From the NCBI RefSeq assembly GCF_006345805.1, contig NC_043000.1, positions 92,194,001 through 92,258,000 on the forward strand: a DNA stretch of 64,000 nucleotides. Direction: 5' to 3'. A program made the translations under genes and the position numbers. The stretch is from Octopus sinensis. Lineage: Eukaryota. Below the pieces are notes generated by a model, which worked only from the letters and a program-made list of their open reading frames with translations, was not told the origin of the DNA and made no database searches. Within the stretch, counting starts at the first letter, position 1, and each line of letters opens with the position of its first letter. This document shows positions 2,000-30,050 of this stretch, in pieces.

Positions 2000-3311
2000 T
2001 TGTCTATCTGTGGAATAATTAATCTATCTATTTCTCTCTCTGTCTACCTATATAGCAATCTATCTATCTGTCTGAATCTCTAGTTGTTCATCATCTATCT
2101 ACTTGTACACAGAAAACGTGCAACTATGCTCTTTTTTAATATAAACAAATCCACACAAATGGATTTATGATTTATATTTTCCCTTATTCTTTCAGTCTAC
2201 AATCATGGATTTTTTTCTTATTGCATTTTTTAAATCTACGTATATTTTTTCCCCAATTTAATTTTTCTTGTTTATCCTTGAAATATAACTTACATAAAAG
2301 CATCAATACATCTTTAAATAAATTTACCTTCCATTTAAGAAGGTCGTTCATAAAAATGGTGTAAGACTTGGCAACATGGTTAAGAATTTAGATTTGCAAT
2401 CACATATATTATTGGTTTGTAGGAACCCAGTATACAGCAACTCATGCAACTGTCTTTAGCCACAGACTCAGGCCAACTCAAGCTTTACTAAATTTAGTTG
2501 TTCCATGGCACAAATACACATACACATACCACACACACACACACGCACACACACACACACATACACACACGCACACACACACACACATACATATATATAC
2601 AGCATGCTTCTTTCAGTATCTTTTACTAAATCCACTCACAATGCTTGGATTGGTTGAAGATACTTGCTCAAGGTGTCATGCAGTGATTCTGAACTTGAAA
2701 CCATTGGTTGGTAGACAAACATCTTCACGATGCAGCCATAACTCAGTGTGTGTGTGTGTGTGTGTGCACGCGTGCATATGTGTGTATGTTTGAATGCATA
2801 TGCATGATAGTAATCAACGTGTATCACTGTCATACAAACATTGTCATTAACTTCCAATGTTCACTGTAAACATGCCTGGACATGGGGAAATATTAACTTT
2901 CTTGGAAACAGGTGATGGTTAGCAACAGGAAGAGCATCCACTCAGAAAATCTGCCCCAATAAATTCTGTCTGATCCATGCAAGCATGAAAAAGTGGATGT
3001 TAAAACGATGATAATGGTAGTGATGACAATTACGACATTGACAGTTACCATAATGAATGTGGCGATGGCAAGGGCAACAGAGGTGGCGATGGTGACAGAG
3101 GTGGTGACAGGGAGAATGTTGATGACAATGAATATATAATAAAGTATCTTTAAAAGAATCTTAGACATTAATTAACTGTTTACTTTACGGATCATTACCA
3201 TTAAATGTTATTTGTTTCTTAACAACTGCTGCAGATTCTCGCAGAAGTTGCTAGTCTGAAGGAAATGGAGGAAGCACAAAGATCATATACAAGCTTCTTA
3301 TTCTTTACAGT

Positions 3312-3705
3312 GAAAGAGAGAGTGAGAGAGAGAGGGAAAGGGAGAGAGGGAGAGAAAGGGAGAGAGGAGAGGGAGAGCTAGATAGAAGCAGAGAGGGAGA
3401 GAGACAGACACAGAGAATGAGAGTTGAGAGGGAGAGAGAGAAGGAGAGAAAGAGAGAGAAGGAGAGAAAGAGAGATAAGGGAGACAGAGAGAAGGGGAGA
3501 GAGAGAGGGAGAGAAAAGGAGAGAGCAGGAAAGAGGGAGGAGAGAAGGGGAGAAAGAAGGAGAGAGAGGGGAAGAGGGAGAGAAAGAGAGAAAGGGAGAG
3601 AGAAGGAGAGAGAGGGAGAAAGAGAGAGATGGAGAGAGAGAGAATCAGACAAGACAGAGACAAAGTTACAGAAAGTGACAGAGAGAGAGAGACAGAAAGA
3701 TGTGA
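3312..3705. repeat. GA-rich polypurine low-complexity tract
   Basis: Degenerate (GA)n seen directly. Confidence 0.9.
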
Positions 3706-3997
3706 GATAAAGTTGACAAAGACCTGCTGAATCTGTTTTATCAGACGTTTTAAATCAGCAGTCTTTGGTAATTCCATTGCTTATCTGATCTGGCAGGTAA
3801 AAGACTGGACAATAAAATAATTGGAATCATGCTGATTTGAAGAGAGAAGGAAAACTGTTGCAGTATCTGATTATTCTGAAGTTGGTAATTTAGTTTAAAT
3901 TTAGATTTATTTCAAATATATTTTCATTAACTGCTCTCTAAAGGTTTCATGCTAAATAAAAGAACTTATCATTATCATTATTATTATTAACATATTA

Positions 3998-4354
3998 CTA
4001 GCAGTATCGCCCAGTGTTGCTTGGGTTTGTTTTGACCCTTTAAAATTGGAATTTTTGAAAAGTAAAAATTTTGCATTTTGTAGCTTGCTATTCTCTTTAA
4101 GTGAACATTTTTCTGGTTGAAATACACCAAAAAATGGCGACACAGCAGTAAGAAAATCGTAAAAAATAGGGATTTTCATCGAAAATAAGCACCTTTTTGA
4201 TGTAAATAATTTTTGGTCTTAACATGGTCCAATTTGAATTTTATCATACTCTCAATTTTGGTCAACTAGTGCCGCAGGGTCTCAGAGGAGATAGTGTTAG
4301 TTGAAGGTTACCAAACCTGCTGCACACAGACTACTTCAGCTTAATATATATAGA
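3998..4354 (-). mobile_element. Non-autonomous Helitron
   Basis: On the minus strand: A|TCTATATATATT 5' end, subterminal hairpin CCCAAGCAACACTGGG and CTAG|T 3' end, no TSD. Confidence 0.75.
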
Positions 4355-4372
4355 TTAATAATCTTATTTGTA

Positions 4373-5020
4373 AGGTGGTGAGCTATAAGAAACTTTAGCG
4401 CGCTGGGTGAAATGCTTAGCGGTATTTTGTCTCTCTTTACATTCTGAGTCCAAATTTCGCTGAGGTCGAAACTGCCTTTCATCCTTGCGGGGTGGAGGGG
4501 GTCGATAAATTAAGTTGCCTACTGGGATCGATCTAGTCGACTGGCCTCCTCCCCAAACATTTCAGGCCTTGTGCCTAGAGTAGAAAAGATTATTATTATT
4601 AGTGGCAATCTGGCACAATCAGTAGCATGCCTGACAACATGCTTAGCAATATATTGTCTCCTTTTACATTCTGAGTTCAAATTCTGTTAAGGCCAACTTG
4701 GTCTTTTAATTCTTTTGAGGTCAATAAAATAAGTATCAATCAAGTACTGGGGTCAATGCAATCAAGTTGTCTCCTCCCTCAAAATTTCAGACCTTGTGCC
4801 TATAGTAGAAGCACTTACTATCATTATTAAAATGCTGGAGTAGCAGAATTGTGAGCGAGTAGGTGACATTTCTTCTGGCTCTTTATGCTCTGATTTTGAG
4901 TCCTGCTGAGGTCAACTTAATCATTCTGTGGCCTATAAAATAAAGTAAAAGACTGGGGCCAACAGTAACCCTTAAACCTTTCTCTTAATGTTGCTGGCTT
5001 TGTGCCTAAATTTGAAACTA
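4373..5020 (+). mobile_element. Three head-to-tail copies of SINE family B separated by ATT-rich tails
   Basis: Repeated TTCTGAGT(T/C)CAAATT...GAGGTC...CCTTTCATCC...CTTGTGCCTA modules starting at ~4373, ~4600 and ~4835. Confidence 0.75.
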
Positions 5021-5076
5021 TTATTATTACACTAGTGTATGTCTCCTCAAATCTCAAGAATTTTTCTTAAGATTCT

Positions 5077-5372
5077 AGGAGTGGTGGTGTGGTAAGTAAC
5101 TTACTTACCAAACACATAGTTCTGGGTTCAGTCTTCTGCATAGCACTATACTATAACCTCGGGCTGACCAAAGCTTTGTGTGTGTCTGTGTTTGTTCCCC
5201 CCAAAATCACTTGACAAACGATGCTGGTGTGTTTACGTCCCCATAACTTAGTGGTTCGGCAAAAAGAGTACTAGGCTTACAAAGAATAAGTCCTGGGGTT
5301 GATTTCCTCGATGAAAGGCGGTGCTCCAGCATGGCAACAGTCAAATGACTGAAACAAGTAAAAGAGTAAAAA
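5077..5372 (+). mobile_element. SINE family C, internally deleted copy
   Basis: Matches the full copy at 58138-58563 (head AGGAGTGG.TGTGTGGTAAG; tail CAGTCAAATGACTGAAACAAGTAAAAGAG). Confidence 0.85.
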
Positions 5373-5444
5373 GTATAGGATGTACTTTTCTGGAGGTTGA
5401 CAATGTGTTTCGATCCCACTTTCTTTCAGTCTTTTAGATAGCAC

Positions 5445-5950
5445 TTAGGGTGTTGTGCCTAGTGTACCTATTACTACAGGAATAATCATTGTCTTGATCT
5501 TCCACAGGCTCATCAACTCTCTGGCTAGTTCCTGGTATTTCTCAGGTTTTTCAATTCCTTTGGTATCAACTCTGCCATCATATTGGATTGCAGCATCTTT
5601 GAACATACACTGTTTGTTTATTTTGTCCTCTATAATCATGTTTGATATCCTTGCCACAACAGTATGGGCTGTCTTTATGGTGATGTCCCACAAAATCCAG
5701 TAATTCCCTTTTTCTGTCACAACCTCTGGTTGGTGATCATATCACTTTTCTGTTGTTTTGAAGCCACATACTTGACTAACATCCAATTACACTCTTTTGC
5801 GTACACAGTCATGTCTGCACTTATACTCCTTTTGTGCTAGTGTACTGCAATCATTCAAAATGTGATTGATGCTTTTGTCTCCTTTCCTGCAAATTCTACA
5901 TTCGTTGTTTGACTAAGTTTTGTCAATCTTTGCCTTTAGCAGATTTGTTC
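5445..5950 (-). mobile_element. R4/Dong-type non-LTR retrotransposon remnant (CCHC finger and restriction-like endonuclease)
   Basis: Minus-strand translation with stops and frameshifts: CRICRK..SINHILNDC..LAQKEYK.RHD, ILWD, KYQELAREL..LW..IIPVVIGTLG. Confidence 0.85.
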
Positions 5951-5964
5951 CTGAGCAGCAAGTG

Positions 5965-6220
5965 CCACCTGACTTGCTCCCATGCTGGTGGCACATAAAA
6001 AGCACCATTCAAGCATGGTCAATGCCAGTACCACCAGACCGGCCCTCGTACCAGTCACACATAAAATCACCCACTACACTCTGAGTGATTGGTGTCAGAA
6101 AGGGCATCCAGCAGTAGAAACCTTGCCAGCTCAGATTGGAGCCTGGTGCAGCCTTCTGGCTTGCCAGTCCTCAGTCAAACCATCCAGTATGGAAAGCAGA
6201 CATTAAACGATAATGATGAT
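5965..6220 (+). mobile_element. RTE 3'-UTR-like repeat (family D)
   Basis: GGTGGCACATAAAAAGCACC unit, AAGGGCATCCAGC motif and (GAT)n tail; same sequence as the 3' end of the RTE at 54057-55625. Confidence 0.75.
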
Positions 6221-14921: not shown

Positions 14922-15313
14922 TTTTCTTCAACAGCTTATGGTTCAGCAAGTCATAGAATGTTTTAAGAAAGTTTATACAATCCATCTAATCAGGGTTAAT
15001 TTTGAAGTGACTTTGTTTAGTGATTTGATGTTAAAAGAGTTTTGGAGTAATCACTCCACAACTACAGATGCTAAATATAATATTTAATGCTGAAATCAAA
15101 GTGGTCTAGATGTAAAGTGAGGCTTGCCGTTTTCTTGAAGAGTATTGTCACCTAATCTTGTCTCTTCAATGGATTTTGAAATGTTTTGCATCAAGAGCTT
15201 ATTCTTGAGGAAATTGTATGTTTGTATATTTCTATGGACCAGGAGATGAATGAAGAAGACAACAAAACAAATGACTTAGTTAAAAAGCAAAGATTTTTTG
15301 CAAACAACTTGCA

Positions 15314-15732
15314 GAGGCATAGGAGTGGCTGTGTGGTAAGTAGCTTGCTTATGAACCACATGGTTCCGGGTTCAGTCCCACTGCATGGAACCTTGGGCAA
15401 GTGTCTTCTACTATAGCCTCAGGCTGACCAAAGCTTTCTGAATGGATTTGGTAGATGGAAACTGAAAGAGGCCTGTCGTATATATGTACATATGTATATG
15501 TGTATATATATATATATATATGTTTGTGTGTCTATATTTGTTTCCCCAACATCACTTGACAACTGATGTTGGTGTGTTTAAGTCCCTGTAACTTAGCTGT
15601 TCGGCAAAAGAGACCGATAGAATAAGTACTAGGCTTACAAAGAATAAGTCCTGGGGTCAATTTGCTCGACTAAAGGTGGTACTCCAGCATGGCCACAGTC
15701 AAATGACACTAACAACTAAAAGAGTAAAGAGT
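15314..15732 (+). mobile_element. SINE family C, full length
   Basis: Head, CCTTGGGCAAGT core, internal TA/TG microsatellite and AAAGAGT tail; TGCA occurs on both flanks (possible short TSD). Confidence 0.9.
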
Positions 15733-16264
15733 ATGCAAGTGCTACTAGTTGAAATCTCCGCTTACCAGATGCTAGCAAGTTTATTGGGTCATCAGGAGAG
15801 AATGCAAACAATGTAAATGGGAAAATGAACCATATCAGAGAAGCGCTGATTGAGTTTTTCCATGAGCTGAAAGACATTGTAAGCATGTATCAGCTTATTC
15901 TAAAGGATGCTGAACCATTTTAAAGGGGTGAACCATTACCTTTTTACAAGTGTTGTAATATTTTGTGAACTGTTCAAAAGAACAGGCTGCAACAATCTGG
16001 ATTATTTCTTTAAATCCTTCTACTTCTGTTATTATTTTCTTTGATACCAAATGATTCAGATGATTTTCTTGCTGCAGAAAGTAATTCTCATCAGAGATTT
16101 AGAAAAGATGGCCTGTCTTTCTGCACAATAATTTTCCTCTTCTTTAGCACAGTGCTGCCCTTCACTTTAGTTAAGCAGCTTGCCAAACTCAAGTCTTCTT
16201 TTATAGGATTTTCAATTGCTAATTTTTAATTTTTCATTCTTTGAATTTTTAATATGCTTTTTAA

Positions 16265-16781
16265 CCCCTTTGATACCATTTTTCTTTTGAGATACATTGC
16301 CTCTATTTCAATTAATTTTGATAATAATAATAAATTTAGTAAAATAACTTAGTTATTGTTAAGGTCATAAGAATTTATAAACTTCAAGAGAATATGCAAT
16401 AATTCTTTCTGGAATGTTGGATCTTGAAGCAGATAAGCTATAAATAAATAGCATGTAAATATTTGGTTTGAAGATGCTTTTGGATAAAAAATGTAGTAGG
16501 CTTCCCATGGTGCACAAGCCTATACCTCTTGTCAAAATAACTGGCTTCACAAACTGCCTTTGAATTTTTCTATATAAAAGGGATTTTAACCCAATATTGA
16601 CATTTTATTATTTATAGCTTTATCTACTTTGAGGTAAAATATCTTGGTTATTATTAAGCTTGTGATTGGAATATTAATTAATATGGAATTTTGGTGGCAG
16701 GTTTTCATAGAGATCAGCTTAAAACATAAGGTTTGTATCATAGAACCAACAGCAGCCTTAGGTGCGTTGATATCAGAAGGG
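16265..16781. mobile_element. piggyBac-like MITE carrying a 283-bp insertion
   Basis: TTAA|CCCCTTTGATAC...GATATCAGAAGGG|TTAA; related copies at ~33160-33340 and ~59870-60087. Confidence 0.7.
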
Positions 16782-17440
16782 TTAAAATATAATTATGTGT
16801 CCATAAGTATATGTGTAGTTACATGAAGACTAAATGTCATGTAGAATTACTTCCCTTTAAAGATATGTATCCAACTGAATGTTGAAACTAGCCATTAGTT
16901 TTATTAAATGACTGATTATTATTAAGTTTATGTATTTGTTTTGCTAGATTCTTGATGGGAAATTGTGTGTTGAAACAGGTTTTGTTTATTTATCAGAGTT
17001 CTTTCATCACACTCTGTTCTTCTCCATGTCTCCTCATGTCTTCTCTATTTCATTTTATCTTTTTGTGGAATGTATCTCTATCTGTTCATGCAGATATATA
17101 ACAATGTTATATACAAATTTATACATATGCATGCAAGATACACATATATAGATGCTAAACATATAGACACACACAGAGACACAGAAGCAAATGCATGTGA
17201 AAATAGAGATACATACCAAAGAAAGATAAGATGGAATGAACAGAACAAGGCCTAAGAGAAAAGGAGACACAGAGAAGAAGAACAGATAGTCATTGAAGGT
17301 TTCATAGAATGTGTGACAAAAGAACCCTGACATATAAACAATAGTTAATAATAATAAAGGTAAAGTGAAAAATCAAATAAATAGTGCATGTGTTTATTGG
17401 CAAAATGACCGTTCCTGAATATAACATTATTAATAACGAT

Positions 17441-17750
17441 AAACGTCGCTCTTTTCAAGACTAGCCAGGCTCATGGGCCAGGTTTCCCAGTTTCTGTGGT
17501 GTATGTGTTCCCCCCTGCTGGACGGGGTGCCAGTCCATCGCAGCGTTACTCAAGAAACAGGAAGAGAAAGTAAGAGAAAGTTGTGATGGAAGAGTACAAC
17601 AGGGGTCGCCACCACCCCCTGCTGGAGCCTCATGGGGCTTTTAGGTGTTTTCGCTCAATAAACACACACAACACCTGGTCTGGGAATCAAAACTACGATC
17701 CTCCGACTGTGAGTCCGCTGCCCTAACCACTGGGCCATTGCGCCTCCACA
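17441..17750 (-). mobile_element. SINE with family A head and V-domain-like segment
   Basis: Minus strand GCTGCGATGGACTGGCACCCCGTCCAG resembles the V-SINE central domain. Confidence 0.7.
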
Positions 17751-18199
17751 ACATTATTAATTATTATGATTATAATGTGTTGTTCAATATTTGCATATGA
17801 GGCTGTTTGGATGTGTGGTTCTGGAAATTGGGTTCAGCTCCACTGTATGGCACCTAGGACATATGTCATTTACTGTAGCCCCAGTTGACCAAAGTGCTGA
17901 GACTGAATTTAGTAGATGAGAACTGATATCATGTGATAGTTTTAAATGAGTGTCAGCATTATATAAGGCAAACAGAATCCTTCATTTCCCATCTTCTGTG
18001 AAAACATGTCTGGCCATGGGAAAATATTACCTTACTCAGAAACAAGTTAGGGTTGGTAACAGGAAGGGCATCCAGCCATACAAAATCTGCCTAAGCCATG
18101 TGAGCATGGCAATGTGGAGGTTAAAATGACAATGATAATGACAATAACGATGATGATGATTCATTAATATCATTTTAATGAATTACTTTCTTCAATTTG

Positions 18200-18600
18200 G
18201 ATCGTAGGGCAATCTGCTGTGTTTAAGGGGACCTATTGAGCCAAGTACATCAACATCAAAATAAAAATCAAATGAAAATTATAGTTGTGACACCTGTGCC
18301 AGTGGCACGTAAAATGCACCATCCAAACGTGGCCAATGCTAGTCCCACCTTGACTGGATTCCATGCCTGTGGCACGTAAAAAGCACCAACTGATCGTGAC
18401 CACTACTAGCATCCCCTGGCACCTGTGCCGGTGGCATGTAAAAAGCACCCACTACAATCATGCAGTGGTTGGCGTTAGGAAGGGCATCCAGCTGTAGAAA
18501 TACTGCCAGATCAGGTTGGAGACTGGTGCAGCCACCTGGCTTCCCAGACCCCAGCCGAGCTGTCCAACCCATGCTAGCATGGAAAACGGGATGATGATGA
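18200..18600 (+). mobile_element. Family D (RTE tail) copy
   Basis: Three GTGGCA(C/T)GTAAAA.GCACC units, GGAAGGGCATCCAGC motif and (GAT)n tail. Confidence 0.85.
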
Positions 18601-19399
18601 ATTTATACATATTATTTTGGATATTTACTATTTAGTACCACATATCTATATATTATATAAATGTTTATTCTAATATCTGTTAGCTTTTAAATTTTGCATC
18701 TTCATAGGAAGGAGATCACTTAGTTGACATGTAGATTATCCATTTATTAATGTAGTCTCTCTGTTCATTTATGTTCCTAATTTATTATCTTATTAAACAG
18801 CTACAAAATAGCTTTTATTACATAGGTTTAAGTATTTATTGATAATTTGCATTATATTCATTTTTAAAAACACATTTGGGATGCAAGTCATTATGCCTTG
18901 ATTGTAATTTTGGAACCAATTATCCTTAAATTTGTGTATGTATGAGTGTACGGGCATGCGTGTGTGTATTTGTTATATGTACATATGTGTGTGTATGTAC
19001 ATACACACACCCAACTATAAATAGGCATATATATAATGTATATGTATGTAGGTATGTATATGTATATATATATATATATATATATACTAAAATAATGAGG
19101 GTAGAAATTGATATCATTCAATTAACATCAATTTAAACCTGTAGTCTAGCATATTAAAAAAAAAATCCAAAGATTTAAAAATTTGAAGATTCCCAAATTG
19201 TAATATAATTTTAAAATTGTAATTGTAATATATATATATATATATATATATAAATTGATGTAGTAATAAATGAGATTCTGGAAAATCTTGGTTTGTTAAT
19301 GAATTGAATATGTACGTGTGTACTGTATACATGTGCGAGCCTAAAAATATGAAGGTATATGTGTACAGAAGTACACACACACATATATATATATATATA

Positions 19400-19574
19400 C
19401 TTTATTGAAAAGCAGCAAAAATTATATCACAAAAACTGTTACTCAGAGTTTCACGTTCCCGTTCATTGGATAGTTTTGTTTAGAATGGCCCATTCGAAAC
19501 AAAACTCTCTAATGAACGGGAGCGTGAAACTCTAACAGTTTTTGTGATAAAGTTTTTGCTGCTTTTCAATAAAG
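19400..19574. repeat. 175-bp near-perfect palindrome; each arm holds a decayed hammerhead motif (PLE-like inverted terminus)
   Basis: Arms CTTTATTGAAAAGCAGC... and ...GCTGCTTTTCAATAAAG meet at a GCC loop; arm motif is C(C/T)AATGA-ACG-GGAR-CGT-GAAA-CTC(TGAG)-TA. Confidence 0.8.
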
Positions 19575-19605
19575 CATATTACTCTACCTCTGGTATTCAA
19601 GTATT

Positions 19606-21157
19606 CTCTATTCTTCCAATTCTGTCTTGACAATGGTGTTACTCCAGAACAGTGGAAAACTGTCAGTGTCATCCCTCTGTTCAAAAAAGGCGACCACACA
19701 TCGCCTGTCAACTATCGCCCCGTCAGTCTTACTAGCTGCATCGCCAAACTGATGGAATCCTGTATCAGAGAAACCCTCTGGAACTTCTGGAAGTCTCACA
19801 GCCTCATCCAGCCGTCACAATTCGGATTTATTCCTAACTCCAGCTGCTGTAATCAACTCATCGAGTTTCTTGAGGACGTTACCCAAATCACTGATCGCGG
19901 ATCCTGGGTGGATGTTGTTTACCTGGACTTTGCTAAGGCTTTTAACTCTGTTCCACACAAAAGACTTATGGTGAAGCTTTCTGCGTTGGGTGTAAGAGAC
20001 GAACTCTATAACTGATTGAAGTCCTTTATTTTCAGCCAAAAAGAGGTTGTCACAGTTCTAGGACAGCACTCTTCGCCCTATGAGATGACATCTGGTGTAC
20101 CACAGGGATCTGTTCTTGGCCCCCTTTTATTTGTTGCATATGTTAATGATATAGATGCCAACTTAAAGAATGCCACAGTGCTGAAATATGCAGATGACAT
20201 CAAGCTGTACCTCGAAATAAAGAGGTCAAATCCTGTACACTATAGATCTCTATTGCAAGCAGACCTGGACACATTGCAGCAGTGGATCATGGACTGGCAA
20301 CTCAAGCTGGCTGTGGACAAATGTACCACCATGCATTTTGGGAGGAGAAACCCAGCGTCCACCTACTCCCTCCACAACACTAGTCTCAAAAAGTCTTCAT
20401 GTGAATGTGACCTGGGTGTTATTGTCGACAGTGATTTGCGTTGGACAAAACACATCGCTAAAATTGTCAAGAAGGCTGAGGGTGTCTTGGCATCACTCAC
20501 CAAATCCTTTGTGAGCCGCTCTCCAGCTATCTATCTGCGGCTTTATATAGCTATGGTAAGACCTCACCTGGAATTTGCATCACCGGTCTGGAACCCCTAT
20601 CTTGCCCAGGATATCAATCATCTGGAAGCCGTTCAGTGACGTGCAACCAAAAGAATACCCCCATCAGGCATTTGCCATATCCTGAATGCCTTACTTCCCT
20701 GGGCATGGACACATTGAAACTCCGACGTCTGGCAGCTGACTTGGCAGACACCCATAAAATTATCAACCATCGTACAAACAATAACTCTGAGCACCTTTTC
20801 AAACTCCACCCATCTAACACCCGTGGACATATTTACAAAGTAAGAAAACAGCACAGCTCCCATGACTTCAGGAAACATTTTTTCACGCTGAGAGTTGCTG
20901 AAGCATGGAACAAACTGCCGGCATCAGTTGTTAGTTGTCGGAGCACTGCATCCTTCAAAACTTCCATGCTTCCCAAGATTCGCCAACACTACACTTGATT
21001 TTCTCCCCTCCATACACACACAAGCATGTATCTGACTCATACATTGTTCGCTTTCCAGACATTTCTACATTACTGCATGTACTTTATATGCACTTTCTGA
21101 CAAGTTGTGGTGCACCTGAGCACTGTATACAATAATTTCATTATTTATTTATTATTT
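19606..21157 (+). mobile_element. 5'-truncated CR1-group LINE with a nearly intact RT domain
   Basis: NYRPVSLTS, QFGF, YLDFAKAFNSVPH, SGVPQGSVLGPLLF and YADDIKLY lie in one frame with two TGA stops (~20013, ~20637); ATT-rich tail; imperfect TSD AAGTA(T/C)T at 19599 and 21158. Confidence 0.95.
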
Positions 21158-21203
21158 AAGTACTATTTTCTCCACTTTGGTTCGCCTTTATGTGCTTACT
21201 CCA

Positions 21204-21253
<50 letters not shown>

Positions 21254-21355
21254 TCGGGGTGAGTACTTGATAATTATAAGCACCTGTGTATACCGTTTGG
21301 TGGTGTAGGTGGTGGAGTAAATTGATCAAAATAAAAACATGATGCCAAGGATTCA

Positions 21356-21433
21356 GCGGTACATATGTTTCGGGCCTTTATTAGACAGATTTATAACAAT
21401 GCATAATGTTTGTCTGTGGCCTTCTTCAGCCGC
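21356..21433 (-). ncRNA. Type I hammerhead ribozyme motif
   Basis: GCGG-CTGAAGA-a-GGCC...GGCC-c-GAAA-C-ATAT-G-TA-CCGC: intact core, GUA cleavage triplet, palindromic ATAT loop in a minimal stem III. Confidence 0.7.
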
Positions 21434-23232
21434 GCACAACAGCTTCCACAAGGACATGTGTTACATCAAAAATTCTTGGTTGGGGATGCAAATCCTCTCA
21501 TTCGCGTACGACATAATGCGGCAACAGCATAGAATTGAAGCGTCCATCTCTTTCTTCTCTCAATGTAGAATGAGGAAATTTGGATGTTGAAGTAATGTAA
21601 ATAAATAAATACATATATAGACGTGAAGATGGAGGGGCGAGAATTCAGGACGAGGGATAAAAAATGTATGTATAAAAAGTGTAAGTATAGAAAAATATAA
21701 AAATGTAGAGTATAAAGATATAAAGGGATATAAGGAGATGTAAAGGGGGTATAAAGAATATAAAGAAATATAAATGAATGTAAAGGCATAAGGTTATAAA
21801 GTAAAGATAGAAATAGAAATAAAAGTAAAAAGTAAAAAAATAAAAATAGGAATAAACATGATAAAAATGTAAAAATATATAAAAAAATATAAAGATAAGG
21901 GATGTATAGAGGTTACGGACCAAACATGGTGGTCAGGAGATTGATAAAGTTTAGTTGTAGAAGTTGTCTGGGGACTTAGTGTGTTGTAAGTCAGAGCTGT
22001 TGAGCGTTTAATCTAGTTCTTTGAATTAATTGGTCATCTTGTACATACATACCATCATGGATACATACGCCCATATACACGCGCACATATATGCGCGCAT
22101 ACACGGCTCCAAGCCTATAAGCATACACACGCACTCACGTGTAAACATGTACATAAACACACATACACCCACACGCACGTACATATACATACATACAACA
22201 GAATATCCGCATGTATACACGGACATTATACGTGTACACACCCACATATACATACGTGCGTCCATCCTTACATACACATACACATATGCCCACGCTTCCA
22301 GGTTTAGATATAGGATATTAAAGGATGTATATAAGAACGTATGTAAAGAATCATGCACTCACGTCCACACGTGCACGCACACATGGCTGTGTGTCCATAT
22401 GTGCGTGCACATATACACTTGCATACACACACAGAGACATACGCGCATATGGGTATAGCTATAAGATATTAAAAGATGTATACAAATAGGTGTAAACATA
22501 TGAGTATAAGAAAACATGTAAAAAAATGTAAAGAAATACGGGGTATGCACATACAGACGTAGATGTTTACTCGTACATATGTACACATATGTATACGTAT
22601 ACATACGTACACGGACGCTCGTATAATCATAAAGCGGATCCATAGGTAAGTAAATAAGGGATAAGCAAAAAAAATAGACATATATAGAGGTATAAAGCGA
22701 TAAGTTAGGGGTAAGAATGAGGGTAAGAGTAAAAATTAGAAGTAAAAGTAAGAAATACAATATAAAATAAGAAATACAATGTAAAAGTTAGAAATGAAAT
22801 ATAAAAATTATAAAAATTATAAGAATTAAGATAAGGGATGAAAATAAAAATGAGAATAAAGGTAAAGCGAAGTAGAATAGGATAAAGCAAAATAAAAGTA
22901 AAAATAAAAATAGAATAAAATAAAAATATAATCTGGTAAAGTTTAACATGAGATGAAGGTGGTTGAAAGTTAGAGGTGTGTGTTAAAGGTTCCCACGTAG
23001 GGGCGGGCGGGGGGAACTGAAAATTGGAAGGGTGGGAAGTGGAGTTTGGCGGTGTGCATTCAACATCTGAGTTAGAAATGTGAAAGGGTGTAGATATAGG
23101 GAAATAAAGAGACTATATAGGAAGGATATGGGTGTAGGAGAAGAAATATGTAGGGAAAAAAGACATATATGGGAGACAAAATGTGCATATATAGGAGGAA
23201 AATGCAGGGAAACATATATGCACATACACACG

Positions 23233-23288
<56 letters not shown>

Positions 23289-23485
23289 CATATACATACA
23301 CACACATGCACATACATATATATATACGCACACATATACGCATATACACGCACATATAGAGAAGAAAGAGATGGACGCTTCAATTCTATGCTGTTGCCGC
23401 ATTATGTCGTACGCGAATGAGAGGATTTGCATCCCCAACCAAGAATTTTTGATGTAACACATGTCCTTGTGGAAGCTGTTGCGCA

Positions 23486-23561
23486 CGGCTGAAGAAGGCC
23501 ACAGACATACATTATGCATTGTTATAAATCTGTCTAATAAAGGCCCGAAACATATGTACCG
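23486..23561 (+). ncRNA. Type I hammerhead ribozyme motif (inverted twin)
   Basis: CGG-CTGAAGA-a-GGCC...GGCC-c-GAAA-C-ATAT-G-TA-CCG; predicted cleavage after 23558. Confidence 0.7.
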
Positions 23562-23595
23562 CTGAATCCTTGGCATCATGTTTTTATTTTGATCA

Positions 23596-23629
<34 letters not shown>

Positions 23630-23699
23630 TATACACACATATATATACATATATATATATATATATACCTTCATACACATCCAATCCATTAACAAACCA

Positions 23700-24050
23700 A
23701 GATTTTCGAGGAAAACACTTGATAAAGTAAATCTACAGATTAAAGTAGTAGAAAGGCTAGGAACCCCCATAAAATCCCTAATCTGTAGAAGAAAGCCATT
23801 CAAAAGGACCCTGTGTATGAAGAACAATTGTATAGCATGTAGGATGAGCCCAAAGATTAACTGTAATATTAGAAATGTTGTCTATAGTATGCAGTGTACT
23901 GAGGGATGGTACAGAAACAAAAACAACACAACAAATTACATTGAGGAGACAGCACATAGCATAGGAGAAAAGCTTGTCAGTGCTCTACCAACATGCTCAA
24001 TTAATAGAGGCTCAGTTAATAACAAAGAACAGGCACAACACTAAGATTGA
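23700..24050 (+). mobile_element. Penelope-like GIY-YIG endonuclease remnant
   Basis: KVVERLG...C..NNCIAC...NCNIRNVVYSMQC...NYIEETAHSIGE matches the VVY/YIGET pattern with a Cys-rich linker. Confidence 0.8.
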
Positions 24051-24795
24051 TTGCAAAGGCCATACATATAGTAATAGACAGATCGAGCCTCAACAGAAAA
24101 TACAAATGGAACAATAGCTGCCCGCCTAAACATTACACAACATAATGACTAGAGACAGAATGAGAGAAGCAAGGACACATGTACAAACAGTATAATGCGT
24201 AAACACGTATACACACACACAAAAGGCACACATACACACTCCTGAGATGTAATGAGGGATAACAGATAAGTACATAAATGAAAAAAAAAACTGAAGGACA
24301 TAGAACATGCACTATAGTAAGCAAACCCATACACACAGAATACACATGCAAAACACAAGATATAGACATGTGTGCACACACACACAGATACAGCTGCAAG
24401 CACACGTACAGATTACGATATGCACCATAGAAAGCCGAATGGACTAAACAGAGCAGTTGCCATGTAGAATGCAAAGTTGCTAAAGAAGGATACGATGTAT
24501 GATGAAAGATTTTGAGACAATGGACAATAAAGTAAGGAAAATAAAGTATCTGAAGTGATGAACAAATATAGTGTGTTTATTCGGAAAAACAATAATGACC
24601 ATTCTGAAATATAACAATATCTATCTATCTATCTATCTTATTTCTTTACTGCCCACAAGGGGCTACACACAGAGGGGACAAACAAGGACAGACAAACAGA
24701 TTAAGTCGATTATATTGACCTCAGTGCATAATTGGTACTTATTTAATTGATCCCGAAAGGATGAAACGCAAAGTCACTATCTATCAATCTATATG

Positions 24796-24834
<39 letters not shown>

Positions 24835-24895
24835 AGATATCCATGTATATATGTATGAATGTTTGTATATGTGTGTATATATATACATACATATA

Positions 24896-25770
24896 CGTGG
24901 TTTGATCAATAAGTATCCGGACTGTTGTTATAGTAACGAAGCTAAAGCATGCAGAATAAAGCTGCTTGGCATAGAACTGACCATGAACTCTGTTGTGCAT
25001 GTGCAGTAAGATTTAACATTCTACCTCACTTCTGCTGCTTACAGCAGTGCTTGGAAGGAAGGTGTGTAGCATGTGACCGTTGCATTAACAATGACAGAGA
25101 AAGATGAGCAGAGAATTTGCATCAAATTTTGCCAAAAGCTTGGCAATAACTGCTCAGAGGCCTACAAAATGTTTTCAAAGAGTTTTCCTTGTTCTCAACA
25201 CAATCAAGGAGATCTTATGAAACTGAAACCTGAGTGTCTGTTTGGTGACCTGAAGGCAGTTTTGGCACAAACTTGGCAGACATGTCTCTCGTATACAAAT
25301 CTTCAGTGATAATGGGTTGAACTAAACTGTAACTAATCTACACATCCTGTGATAACTCACAGATGGGGATTCAACGATTTCCCCACACAGCTACATGCAC
25401 ATCTGCGATGTTTTTCTAAGTTCTGCTGGTTTCGTGTCTCCCAGAACATTCGTCAATATCAAAATTTTTCTGCCATCTTGGAAACGTCTGAACCACTTGT
25501 ACATTTGTGTGTGGCTCATACACTCCACTCTATACACTTTCTGCAGCTTTGCATAGGCTTCTAAGCAGGTATCACCATAACAACTTTCTGTGTCATGGTC
25601 AATGCGATGATCACATGCTACACACCTTCCTTCCAAGCACTGCTGTAAACAGCAGAATTGAGCTAGAACATTAAAACTTAATGTGCATGCACAGCAAAGT
25701 GAAGCCACTTGGCAAAGATTGACCTTGAACTCTGCTGTACATACACACTAAGTTTTAATGTTCTAGCTTG
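24896..25770. mobile_element. Rearranged mariner derivative with two inverted 5' ends
   Basis: Plus strand MTEKDEQRICIKFCQKLG; minus strand EAYAKLQKVY..MSHTQMYKWFRRFQDGR and SAKFVPKL; TA|CGTGGTTTGATCAATAAGT terminus. Confidence 0.8.
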
Positions 25771-26779
25771 AGTTTTGAAGCTACAATATTCCTCTGGCCC
25801 AATGAATCTTGTCAAAGTGTCCAACCAATGCCAGCTTAGAAAGTGGATGATGATGATAATGATGATGATGATGAACATGATAATGATGATAATGATTGTA
25901 GTTGTAAAGGCAGTGATGGTGAGAGTGGTGGTGGTAGTGGAGGAAAAGGGATAAGTCATGCATCAAGATATTGAATTGCCAGCAGTCCGAAGACCTGTTC
26001 TGTATATATATGTTCAAAGCAGAATCACATTATTCTGAGGATAGTCAAAGAATCCTGGGGATTTTTGCATAGTTAAGTGACAGTTTAACCAAACCAAAGT
26101 ACTTGTATGGATCTCCAGACATTACTTTGAAACCATTATGTAGTTTAATCTAAGGATTGTAGAGCAATTTACTTTCGACATACATTTGTCTGCATGAATG
26201 TGGGTGTATGTTTGCATGTATATATAACATATGTATGCGTGTGTATTGATTTGAAATAAAATTCATATTTATTGATTTATATCATATCATCTTCATTTCT
26301 GATTTGTCTTTTGTATCCCTTTACATGTATATAGATTTTTTTTCATATAGAGTAGATATATGCATTTCATTTCTGCATGTATGTTTGTATATACGTACTT
26401 ACACATGTGTATATACACACACATATACACACACACACACATAGCCACACATACGTACCCACACATATGTAAGTATATATGTGTGCGTGTATAAATATAT
26501 CTTATATGTATGTGTAAATGTATACACACATATATACATATGTATGTATAATTGCATGCATACATATACGCTTATGTATATACACACAGCAGCATATATA
26601 TGAAACATATATAGGCATATATATGTATATATATACACAAACATGCATATATACATATAAATTCATATGCACACACACACACAGACACCTGCACACACAT
26701 ATGGATTTACATGAGCATATACCTACTTACATATTCCTGAAAACACGTGCATATGTATGTGTATGTATGTGTGTTTGCG

Positions 26780-26812
<33 letters not shown>

Positions 26813-27700
26813 GTACGTATGTGTGTGTATATATGTATGTGCAGATATTTATATATATATTAAAAATCTAATCCATTTAGCTATAGACTTCGCACACACA
26901 TACACATACATAGACATATGCATTCTTGCACTCATGCACACACACACGCACATTAAAAAGATGCAAAAATTATTACTTCTTTGTCAATGAATGCACATAT
27001 GCAACCACAAACATTAATGCATGACATATGAGATGCACGCATACACACACTCATAATACATACACACATATACACACATGTCTGAAACACTTTTCATACG
27101 ATGCCGGCCAGATGCACACATACACACGCACACATATGTATACCTGCTAAATACTTATTAACACAGACGAATCCACTGGGGGAGAGACAGATATATGTAT
27201 TCACAAATGCACATAGAAAATCATAAAAATGCATCTATGCAATGCAGGAGATATATGCTGGCTAACTTATCTTTAATTTCCTATGAATTCTTTATTTTTA
27301 ACAGGAACAATTTACTCTTTCTAAAAATATTTCCAATTCTTTGGTAATATCAAGAGAATACACATGCAGTCCACCATATAATAAATATAAAAAAAATAAT
27401 TATGTGTGTGTATGCATGTATATATAAATATATATATATGTGTGTGTATGTGTTTGTGTGTGTGTGTGCATGTGTGTGTGTATATACAGAGACGCACATA
27501 AATACACACATATACCTTATGTATGTGTATACATATATATATATGTATACATATGTATATATATGCATAAATATATATATGCATATATATGCATAAATAT
27601 ATATATACATATATTTATATATATATATACACATATATATGTATGTGTCTGTATTAGTGTGACTGTGTGTGTATATGTATGCAAAAAGTGTATTCATGTC

Positions 27701-27751
<51 letters not shown>

Positions 27752-27789
27752 CACACACACATATTTAAATGCACACATCTTTTATGTGC

Positions 27790-28985
27790 AACAGAAGCAA
27801 TATTAGATTAAAATGCCCATTTATGTATCATATTCAATGTAAATACATTACGTTAGGCAAATTTACTGCTATATTTGTCCAAGGATAATATCTCTTATGG
27901 ACCTACTGGTTTTAACAATCTCAAATGCATCAGTAGGATATGAAAATCATCTGATGGTATTGTAGCAGAGCATTTCTATCATGTTGAGCTTTGTCAGTAA
28001 TATGTACATAGAGCCAACTGTATTCTAAGACAAAATCCATTGATAATAACAAAAAAGAAAGCAGTGATTAAAATGTCACTGAAGTTGCAATTAGCTTAAT
28101 TAAAATTCCTCATGTGCAACAGGAGCAGAATTAGATTAAAATAGCTATTTATGTTTCATAATATATACATATATATATATATATATATACATTGCAGTCG
28201 GTATAATTTACTGTGTATTCACAGACGGAAAATTTAGGCTATTGTCATTGTATTAATGATGCCTCACATGACAGCATGAACATGAATAATATGTGTACAA
28301 CTACATGCATTATAAATAATCGTAGGAAAAATATGACTGGTGATATTCTAACATTGTATGTACATAGGCATAAACTCTTCAGGGACATTGCAACATAGAA
28401 ACTAAGGTAGACTCTAATTGTTAAGTCAATAATCTATAGATAGGTAAAGAAAAGGAAAAAGCAAAAGAATATTACATGGTATAATCCACCTTTCTGTTAA
28501 GAGGCGAAACCTGTATAGGCAAAATCTTTCAAATACTTAGAAAATTAATGAGCACAAGTATATAATATGAGAGTGAAGTTGATGATAATAGTAGTAGTGC
28601 TGATTATTTAGTATATATACTTGTGTATTACATACACACATTTCAGCTAAACAAAGTCTATATTTATTCAATCCATTAACATAGGGTATGGATTTCCCAA
28701 TTATTTTCCAATTAATCACGTGGTGTTTTGTTTTCTTTCAATCTTCATACGTAGCTAGCCAACTTAGTAGCTTTGTTTTTGTCCTTATGTTAGAAGGAGG
28801 CTATGTGATAGTGCTTTTTTAAATTCTCCTTCACAAAATCCAATACAGGTCTTCTTATCTCTTGTATTATTATTTAGTATTGCAGTAACTTCTGCCTTAT
28901 ATACAATAGATTTAATGATATGTTCAATACTTAAAAATACATAATATAAATAATTTAAACATATATATAAAGCCCCTATGTTAGA
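27790..28985. mobile_element. Penelope-like element remnant in two converging pieces
   Basis: Plus strand KNITWYNPPF...IGKIF (~28460-28535); minus strand SIVYKAEV..KTCIGFCEGEFKK..TKLASYV..INWKII..RLCLAE (GIY-YIG); ~40-bp direct repeat at ~27790 and ~28117. Confidence 0.8.
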
Positions 28986-29029
28986 TAACACACACATATA
29001 AATATATATTATCTCTCTTCCTCTCTTTC

Positions 29030-29110
<81 letters not shown>

Positions 29111-29168
29111 ATATGTATGTATGTATATATATATGTTATATGTATGTATATATATATATGTGTGTATG

Positions 29169-29204
<36 letters not shown>

Positions 29205-29243
29205 GCGGCATTAGCCCCAAAAAGTTATTAGCAATAATGCAGT

Positions 29244-29455
29244 TCAGGTTAGTTAATATATGTGTGACATATTTTAACTTCTAAAGGCAAATTCATGCAG
29301 TTACCTAGGAATCTGATGTAGAGAAGCACTGGGCAGAATTAGTGTTTTTACATCTTATACCATAAGAGACAATTTTTCCTGAATGGTAACTACACTGAAT
29401 TTGCCTTTAGAAAATAAAATATGTCGCAAACATATTTTACCTAATCTAAAGTTCA
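29244..29455. repeat. Imperfect inverted repeat, MITE-like
   Basis: GACATATTTTA..TTCTAAAGGCAAATTCA..AGTTACC versus GGTAACT..TGAATTTGCCTTTAGAA..TAAAATATGTC. Confidence 0.6.
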
Positions 29456-29697
29456 TATATGACAGGCTGGTGATATTAATAAAGTGTTAAACACACTATG
29501 GTATGGAAATTAGAAGCTTCAGCTCTCTTTATAATTACTGAATTTGTTGACTATAGAAACATATTGGCTACCTGCTTCTATGGGAACATCTTAAATTGAT
29601 GTAGATACTTCAAATGGGAACCCGACAAGGTTTGGAAAATGATCGAGCCTGTTCGTCATTTTTCCTTTCTATGCAGAGATAGGTTGATTTGCCATGT

Positions 29698-29785
<88 letters not shown>

Positions 29786-29786
29786 T

Positions 29787-30050
29787 CATTGCCAGTGCCG
29801 CTGGACTGGCTCCTGTGCAGGTGACACATAAAAAGTACTATTTGAGAGTGGCCACTGCCAGTACCGCTTGACTGGCCCTTGTGCCAGTGGTACATAAACG
29901 CTTGGAGTGGTTGGCATTAGGAGGGGCATCCAGCTGTAGAAACTCTGCCAGATCAGATTGGAGTCTGGTGCAGACATCTGGTTTGCCAGACCTCAGTCAA
30001 ATCGTCCAACCCATGCTAGCATGGAAAGCAGATGTTAAACGATGATGATG
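29787..30050 (+). mobile_element. Family D (RTE tail) copy
   Basis: GGGGCATCCAGCTGTAGAAAC...CCATGCTAGCATGG...(GAT)n. Confidence 0.8.

What the first reader, a model, noticed from the sequence alone, without database searches (positions are those of the whole stretch)
21321..23597. 2.3-kb non-coding element capped by inverted twin hammerhead ribozymes
Seen: near-identical 240-bp inverted arms. Each has an intact CUGAAGA/GAAA core, a GUA triplet, a minimal stem III with a palindromic AUAU loop, and a long stem II insertion (~40 nt between the GGCC arms). Established: Penelope-like elements and retrozymes carry minimal type I hammerheads in their pseudo-LTRs, palindromic stem III loops allow dimeric cleavage, and inverted pLTRs occur. 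Inference: this is a young non-autonomous PLE or retrozyme-like element in which a transcript from either strand meets a ribozyme near its 3' end. The arms could also fold back into long dsRNA.
Basis: partly seen in the sequence, partly recalled or inferred. Interest (0 to 1): 0.75.

Follow-up and report, generated by a model that had tools for sequence, protein, structure and literature searches.

The report
Hydra-clade Penelope retroelement, head-to-head stub
The two mirror-image ribozyme motifs are real, but they are the two ends of one truncated copy of a protein-coding Penelope-like jumping gene, a layout already described in many animals; its many copies here likely record two copying enzymes starting on the same RNA, and self-cutting is untested.

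Summary
The inverted arms and both type I hammerhead motifs are present as described. The element is not a non-autonomous retrozyme. It is a 5'-truncated insertion of an autonomous Penelope-like element (PLE) with Hydra-clade motifs. A full copy elsewhere has an 836-aa telomerase-like RT plus GIY-YIG ORF in a 4.8-kb unit. A tailless inverted pseudo-LTR completes it, inside (TA)n. This layout is published for PLEs, and this scan noted it before on other DNA.

Family-wide data add three things:
- 29 of 29 ribozyme-anchored inverted pairs carry the tail on exactly one arm.
- The two arms stop within 35 nt of each other in 27 of 63 pairs (6 expected).
- Ends pile up at a conserved Inr/DPE-like motif.

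This fits two target-primed cDNAs, likely often made from one RNA. The ribozyme has a 36-69-nt stem II region conserved by pairing across subfamilies (2,228 pattern matches). Rfam misses it, and cleavage is untested.

The parts
21205..21249 (.). (TA)22 target microsatellite, left flank
21250..21320 (-). PLE 'tail' (~70 nt) between the two fixed 3' end sites; in full copies it continues into the 5' UTR and ORF
   Evidence: 472 exact matches of a 36-nt piece genome-wide, control 0
21321..21573 (-). complete pseudo-LTR (left arm), sense on minus strand
21356..21433 (-). type I hammerhead motif, 4-bp stem I intact, predicted cut 21360/21359
21541..21573 (-). Inr-like TCATTC (A+1 = 21571) and DPE-like GGACG (+27); inferred internal promoter and RNA 5' end
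   Evidence: conserved in diverged subfamilies at +27/+28; 24 of 126 arm ends fall in this 30-nt bin
21574..23359 (-). pyrimidine-rich, low-complexity 3' UTR of the element, truncated 75 nt downstream of the ORF stop
   Evidence: 92% identical to the UTR of full copy L059; 1,084 first-look candidates; T 43%, C 21%
23358..23359 (.). inversion junction, 2-nt microhomology AG
23358..23597 (+). inverted, tailless, 5'-truncated pseudo-LTR (right arm); starts at +12, so it lacks the Inr-like motif
23485..23562 (+). type I hammerhead motif, predicted cut 23558/23559; stem I pair 4 broken by G>A at 23485
23598..23667 (.). (TA)n target microsatellite, right flank

Best explanation
This is a 5'-truncated, head-to-head insertion of an autonomous Penelope-like retroelement with Hydra-clade motifs, likely made when the element's RT-endonuclease primed both strands of a nicked (TA)n target. 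Shown: family ORF, 4.8-kb unit, two fixed 3' end sites ~70 nt apart (39 and ~110 nt downstream of the ribozyme cut site), one tailed and one tailless arm, (TA)n flanks, AG microhomology at the junction. Inferred: (1) an Inr/DPE-like promoter at the start of the pseudo-LTR makes the RNA; (2) the GIY-YIG domain nicks both target strands; (3) one 3'-OH primes reverse transcription at the tail-end site and the other at the internal site; (4) the two cDNAs stop and are joined head to head, often having copied the same RNA molecule; (5) the template was uncut at this ribozyme, because both inserted ends lie 3' of the cut site. The ribozyme would act, if at all, on tandem transcripts as a dimer through its palindromic stem III, or with help from the element's protein. 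In this copy it is a passenger.
For: Full copy L059: pLTR-tail-ORF-UTR-pLTR-tail-(TA)n with an inverted tailless arm. Fold model pLDDT 78, top PDB matches are TERTs. Hydra motifs in the alignment against the definition in PMC8557442. Tail on exactly one arm in 28 of 28 pairs, plus L205; 6 of these pairs belong to diverged subfamilies. Of 60 consecutive tail-anchored loci, 45 have an inverted tailless far end and none has two tails on one pair. Arm ends within 35 nt in 27 of 63 pairs, permutation mean 6.2; 15 of 47 vs 2.9 with the hot spot removed. Arms of one insertion differ by 1.0% vs 2.8% between insertions, 46 pairs, with variants private to one insertion on both arms. Either arm can be the longer one: tailless 19, tailed 17. 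PMC11167929 shows in vitro that a PLE protein nicks and extends both strands, starts at two internal RNA sites that delimit the tail, and does not need ribozyme cleavage.
Against: One-armed insertions exist: 12 of 60 tail-anchored loci have no inverted arm, and 10 of 17 fetched single ribozyme hits are tailless with no partner found. In this very copy the arms end far apart (unit positions 4459 and 2667), so 'same RNA' is not shown for it; 36 of 63 pairs are like that. Shared variants could also come from two RNAs of one source locus or from gene conversion between arms. The DPE-like motif is at +27 in this subfamily, one base off the recalled canonical +28. No RNA 5' end or cleavage was measured. 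Pfam finds no RT or GIY-YIG in this protein itself, and each in only 2 of 14 aligned homologues.
Confidence: 0.9

Rival explanations
1. Same element, but the inverted arm arises by self-priming or fold-back of a single strand (the model proposed for rotifer PLEs in PMC3846280, on an antisense template), not by two target-primed cDNAs.
For: Many junctions are near-perfect palindromes with a short off-centre spacer: tailless arm further in 16, tailed in 4, equal in 7 of 27; 13, 2 and 3 of the 18 re-mapped exactly. Arms share private variants. PMC3846280 Discussion reports such palindromes.
Against: A fold-back copy of a tailed cDNA cannot reach further 5' than its template, and a copy of a tailless cDNA cannot gain a tail. 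Yet the tailless arm is the longer by >35 nt in 19 pairs and the tailed arm in 17, for example L184 (4.5 kb tailless, 0.36 kb tailed).
Confidence: 0.15
2. A non-autonomous retrozyme-like element whose twin ribozymes cut out a unit RNA that circularises.
For: No ORF in the window copy; hammerheads conserved; ~320-nt pLTR-plus-tail stubs are very common.
Against: Ribozymes face outwards on opposite strands, so no transcript is cut twice. There is no tandem 150-450-bp monomer as defined in PMC7229834. The interior is the UTR of an ORF-bearing family, and interior length varies from 0 to >4 kb. Inserted ends do not coincide with the cut site. In L059 the two direct pLTRs differ at 2 sites, one a variant seen in other copies; this fits a linear tandem template better than one circle (one case only).
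Confidence: 0.04
3. The locus has been kept by the host as a bidirectional ribozyme terminator or a source of long dsRNA.
For: The arms would form a very stable duplex if transcribed through (about -447 kcal/mol).
Against: One of many similar young insertions; flanks are other transposon remnants; the right ribozyme has a stem I-breaking mutation. No gene context was found or sought beyond ORFs at 15000-30000.
Confidence: 0.03

Closest known systems
Hydra clade of C-terminal EN+ Penelope-like elements, e.g. Hydra-1_Obim (Craig et al. 2021, PMC8557442; section 11, passages and supplement parts 1-2 plus a search read)
   Same: Single ORF with RT then GIY-YIG; DKT, CxCx5C linker, no CCHH, CxxC and CxH around the conserved E/N; (TA)n targets; hammerhead in the 3' end; 5'-truncated inverted copy (noted for Penelope-13_HM); non-canonical 10.1-11.1 pair common in their listed Hydra ribozymes.
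   Different: Unit 4.8 kb vs 1.1-3.0 kb listed; 1.85-kb low-complexity 3' UTR before the pLTR; 36-69 nt between CUGANGA and GAAA vs 4-7-bp stems with 3-10-nt loops listed for Hydra; RWA for RWK; tail ~70 nt vs 30-40. The protein is visibly a different family from Hydra-1_Obim (compared by eye).
Poseidon_Ac (PAc) from Anolis (Frangieh et al. 2024, PMC11167929; main text parts 1-2 of 4 read)
   Same: Two internal RT start sites that delimit the tail; AT-rich targets; AC-rich sequence at the start sites; inserted copies include the uncut ribozyme.
   Different: Other clade. Their data are in vitro and do not address one-tail-per-insertion or shared arm ends. Here the ORF starts downstream of the tail, not inside the ribozyme.
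Adineta vaga Penelope insertions (Arkhipova et al. 2013, PMC3846280; passages and Discussion read)
   Same: Inverted pLTR, tail at one of the inverted pLTRs, palindromic junctions, Inr-like motif in the pLTR, low-complexity inserts in the ORF.
   Different: They propose self-priming on an antisense template from few copies; the counts here favour two target-primed cDNAs.
Minimal PLE hammerheads (Cervera and de la Pena 2014, PMC4209133; parts 1-2 of 4 read)
   Same: Type I, short helix I (4 bp), small palindromic helix III, opposite-strand pairs 100-700 bp apart already reported.
   Different: Helix II region far longer; A.C or A.A at its base in 68 of 80 distinct copies.
Metazoan non-LTR retrozymes (PMC7229834 passages; bioRxiv 10.64898/2026.07.22.740005 part 1 of 5)
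   Same: Type I hammerhead, no ORF in this copy, PLE kinship.
   Different: Not a tandem short repeat; belongs to a coding family.

Membership tests
EN+ Penelope-like element | Single ORF with telomerase-like RT | tested here: met
   836-aa ORF in L059; YRDD motif conserved; best fold matches are TERTs, E 4.8e-9. Absent from the window copy by truncation.
EN+ Penelope-like element | GIY-YIG endonuclease | tested here: met
   VIY...YIG...R motif at the C-terminus; Pfam GIY-YIG hits 2 of 14 aligned homologues but not this protein.
EN+ Penelope-like element | pLTR in partial tandem or inverted arrangement, with tail at one end | tested here: met
Hydra clade | DKT motif, CxCx5C linker, no CCHH, CxxC and CxH motifs, C-terminal EN | tested here: met
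   IPADKTG, CNCRCASEC, CQLC, CIH; definition
Hydra clade | RWK motif | tested here: inconclusive
   RWA here; RW or closely similar in homologues, K in most
Hydra clade | Insertion into (TA)n | tested here: met
   57 of 60 tails followed by a simple repeat, mostly TA
Hydra clade | Generally short (<3 kb) | tested here: not met
   Unit 4,769 bp. A tendency in the paper ('generally'), not a diagnostic; recorded as a variant trait.
Hydra clade | Phylogenetic placement with named Hydra proteins | not tested
   Named reference proteins were seen only as paper text; compared by eye.
Type I hammerhead ribozyme | Core CUGANGA, GAAA, NUH with helices I-III | tested here: met
   93.4% of cells paired, covariation score reached by 2 of 500 shuffles (not a probability). 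Core letters were used to select the copies.
Type I hammerhead ribozyme | G10.1-C11.1 pair | tested here: not met
   A.C in the window; paired in only 12 of 80 distinct copies. U.U and U.C occur here in published Hydra ribozymes.
Type I hammerhead ribozyme | Self-cleavage | not testable with these tools
   No assay; contigs cannot show RNA ends.
Non-LTR retrozyme | Short (150-450 bp) tandem non-coding monomers, each with a ribozyme on one strand | tested here: not met
   No such period; ribozymes on opposite strands; coding family
Non-LTR retrozyme | Abundant circular RNA | not testable with these tools
   No raw RNA reads offered

The most novel reading that the evidence does not exclude
The insertions are fossils of twin priming on one RNA. 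Two RTs of a dimer start 70 nt apart at a duplicated AC-rich signal, each from one nicked target strand, and travel in convoy. The trailing (tail) RT displaces the leader's cDNA and stops a footprint (about 5-30 nt) behind it, or both run off the RNA 5' end at the pLTR promoter; when displacement fails, the tailed arm is tail only. This would explain PLE inverted pLTRs, one-sided tails and palindromic junctions by one mechanism. It also implies that full-length copies need tandem or ribozyme-processed templates.
Probability: 0.4. Interest if true: 0.55.

Novelty: new member of a known kind. Interest (0 to 1): 0.33.

Why it matters
The locus itself is ordinary transposon debris. The family is useful because it is young, numerous and has intact ORFs. 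Its insertion footprints put numbers on an open question, how PLEs make inverted pLTRs and tails, and they discriminate between the published self-priming idea and a two-primer model that matches the only in vitro PLE study found. It also gives a long-stem-II hammerhead with over 2,000 genomic matches that Rfam misses, so ribozyme surveys with short stem II limits undercount.

Tried and rejected
- Rfam scan: no hammerhead among 72 matches.
- Single-strand folding: no stability above shuffles.
- Pfam on the ORF: no RT or EN hit. PDB sequence search: one RT at E 0.93.
- Hot spot of 5' truncation at the ribozyme cut site: not found among 30 loci around the ORF start (one junction 3 nt upstream, L069). 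Two arm ends fall exactly on the cut (L244 tailless, L245 tailed), too few to count as evidence.
- Sequencing runs: no RNA holder listed. Contigs of 4 runs guessed to be RNA cover the pLTR (4 of 4) and most of the ORF (3 of 4), show (TA)n loose ends at both end sites and no joints; this cannot show expression.
- One search used a mis-registered structure string and is void; one search is the corrected count.
- One search stopped after 18 of 27 pairs.
- The GIY-YIG-like fragment at 23676-24041 is not part of this element.
- The Lunse et al. dimer paper (PMC5785218) was not held; I know it only through a review passage (PMC6765202) and its title.
- Paper searches for a prior same-RNA or twin-priming account of PLEs: 1 paper, PMC11167929; 2 unrelated, listing only; 0; 1. 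Subscription papers and bioRxiv supplements were not searchable, and Repbase was not available, so the family may already have an entry.
- PMC13282606 (Octopus vulgaris repeats; passages only) has no mention of ribozymes.
- Scan look-up by sequence: nothing.

Full report
1. Observation. The window has 249-nt inverted arms at 21318-21566 and 23352-23600, 98% complementary. The genuinely shared part is 240 nt with three mismatches. Each arm reads, outward, as a type I hammerhead: stem I (G)CGG/CCG(C), CUGAAGA, 51 nt, GAAAC-AUAU-GUA, with predicted cuts at 23558/23559 and 21360/21359. The right arm has G>A at 23485, which breaks stem I pair 4; forcing the hammerhead fold costs 3.2 kcal/mol there and 0.7 in the left arm. 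Rfam has no hammerhead hit, and free folding is no better than shuffles.

2. The family. The genome is 2.72 Gb. An octopus host is my inference from size and microsatellite content, from a homologous Octopus family in PMC8557442 and from earlier scan notes; no call names it. The arm has 1,653 first-look candidates and the interior 1,084. In other copies the interior always continues from the arm as it does on the window's minus strand. Extending copies gave L059: pLTR 3208-3456, tail, ORF 3606-6116 (836 aa), 1.85-kb UTR, pLTR, tail, (TA)n, with an inverted tailless arm upstream. The unit is 4,769 bp. Three of 150 scored endonuclease matches lie in 842-codon open frames. The protein has 374 relatives at E<=1e-30. 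Its model (pLDDT 78) matches telomerase RTs best. It carries DKT, CxCx5C, YIG, CxxC and CxH and lacks CCHH, as defined for Hydra. It differs from the listed Hydra families in length and ribozyme stem II.

3. The window copy. Minus strand 23359 to 21250 is unit positions 2667-4769 (92% to L059): UTR from 75 nt after the stop, pLTR and tail. Plus strand 23358-23597 is positions 4459-4698. The junction is an AG microhomology, and both flanks are (TA)n.

4. The ribozyme. A degenerate pattern matches 2,228 places, control 0. Subfamilies whose endonucleases are 62-78% identical carry the same architecture. Among 80 distinct copies, stem I pairs 1-4 hold in 75-80 and stem II pairs 2-5 in 76-79, with C-G/U-A and G-C/A-U/G-U swaps. 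Position 10.1-11.1 is paired in only 12; stem III is ACAUAUGU, ACAUGUGU or ACACGUGU in 79; the stem II region is 36-69 nt and folds as an extended hairpin. Part of these letters were fixed by the selecting pattern. On a 17-row alignment 93.4% of cells pair, four pairs change on both sides, and slid controls give 17-45%. This supports selection on the fold in active lineages; it does not show cleavage. Low activity and dimer dependence of such motifs are reported.

5. Ends. Of the first 100 listed pattern hits, 47 lie in 23 outward-facing clusters. I fetched all 23 and 17 of the other 53. Six of the 17 proved to be pairs. All 29 pairs have the tail on exactly one arm (a duplicated pair in L178 counted once). 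Of the other 11, ten are tailless and one is tailed. In a second sample of 60 consecutive tail matches, 45 have an inverted tailless far end, none has two tails on one pair, 12 are one-directional, 1 is unresolved and 2 are internal tails of tandem junctions. By design this sample cannot show tailless-only insertions. Both end sites lie 3' of the cut, so templates were uncut there. Each end site is followed in the unit by a similar AC-rich motif with only weak hairpins (-6.6 and -7.3 kcal/mol).

6. Junctions. I used 63 pairs: 41 of 45 from the second sample (4 dropped for unresolved junctions) and 22 of 29 from the first (6 diverged-subfamily pairs and one rearranged pair dropped). A few long-arm ends are approximate. 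The arms stop within 35 nt in 27 pairs (permutation mean 6.2, none of 20,000 as high); with the hot spot removed, 15 of 47 vs 2.9. In those 27 the tailless arm reaches further in 16, the tailed in 4, and 7 are equal. In the other 36 the longer arm is tailless in 19 and tailed in 17. Exact re-mapping of 18 gave 13, 2 and 3. Arms of one insertion differ by 1.0% against 2.8% between insertions (46 pairs). 24 of 126 ends fall in one 30-nt bin (neighbours 4 and 8) that holds TCATTC; GGACG follows at +27, and at +27 or +28 in diverged subfamilies. PMC2377424 reports Inr and an RGACG-type downstream element in Penelope (passages). I read this as the RNA 5' end (inference). The window's right arm stops 11 nt short of it.

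7. Mechanism. Best reading: both target strands are primed at two fixed internal sites, the cDNAs are joined head to head, and they often come from one RNA. This agrees with PAc biochemistry. Fold-back of one strand explains the palindromes but not long tailless arms paired with short tailed ones. A retrozyme reading fails its defining features. Confidence is 0.9 for the identity, about 0.7 for two-primer insertion and about 0.4 for the same-RNA convoy. Gene conversion and two RNAs from one source are not excluded, and this copy's own arms end far apart.

8. Known and new. Inverted pLTR, one-sided tail, palindromic junctions, (TA)n bias and opposite-strand ribozyme pairs are all in print. Earlier notes of this scan describe the same layout on other DNA; these are unchecked and not independent support. 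I did not find this long-UTR family, its long-stem-II ribozyme or the junction statistics in searches. Repbase and subscription papers were not seen. Verdict: new member of a known kind, interest 0.33.

Noticed in passing
window 23676-24044 (+): Decayed GIY-YIG-like fragment with an upstream CxxC of another high-copy family (2,882 candidates, others 53-67% identical); unrelated to the Hydra ORF; Naiad- or Neptune-like by my recollection of motifs. A similar short stretch lies on the minus strand near 19250-19370.
   Followed up: partly
window 19551-21000 (+): Broken non-LTR RT remnant (Pfam RVT_1), CR1/L2-like by recalled motifs; the left arm's putative promoter points into it.
   Followed up: partly
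window 24987-25747: Mariner-like remnant: 120-bp inverted repeats and a Mos1 HTH match.
   Followed up: no
window 19395-19579: Small fold-back element with 47-bp arms and an inner hairpin.
   Followed up: no
L059 ORF aa 485-550 and 630-694: Two low-complexity N/T/R-rich stretches, disordered in the model and mostly missing in homologues; reminiscent of N-rich inserts in rotifer PLEs.
   Followed up: partly
L125:6288, L127:5103/5137, L129:6457, L131:7479, L136:325, L137:372 and 3547: Other hammerhead-like motifs of different families, including a directly overlapping inverted pair and two more long-stem-II types.
   Followed up: no
L244, L245: One arm in each ends exactly at the predicted ribozyme cut site; a weak hint of cleavage in vivo.
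   Followed up: partly
L067/L068 and L069/L071: Tandem near-full units 5.3 and 4.4 kb apart; possible read-through sources of long copies.
   Followed up: no
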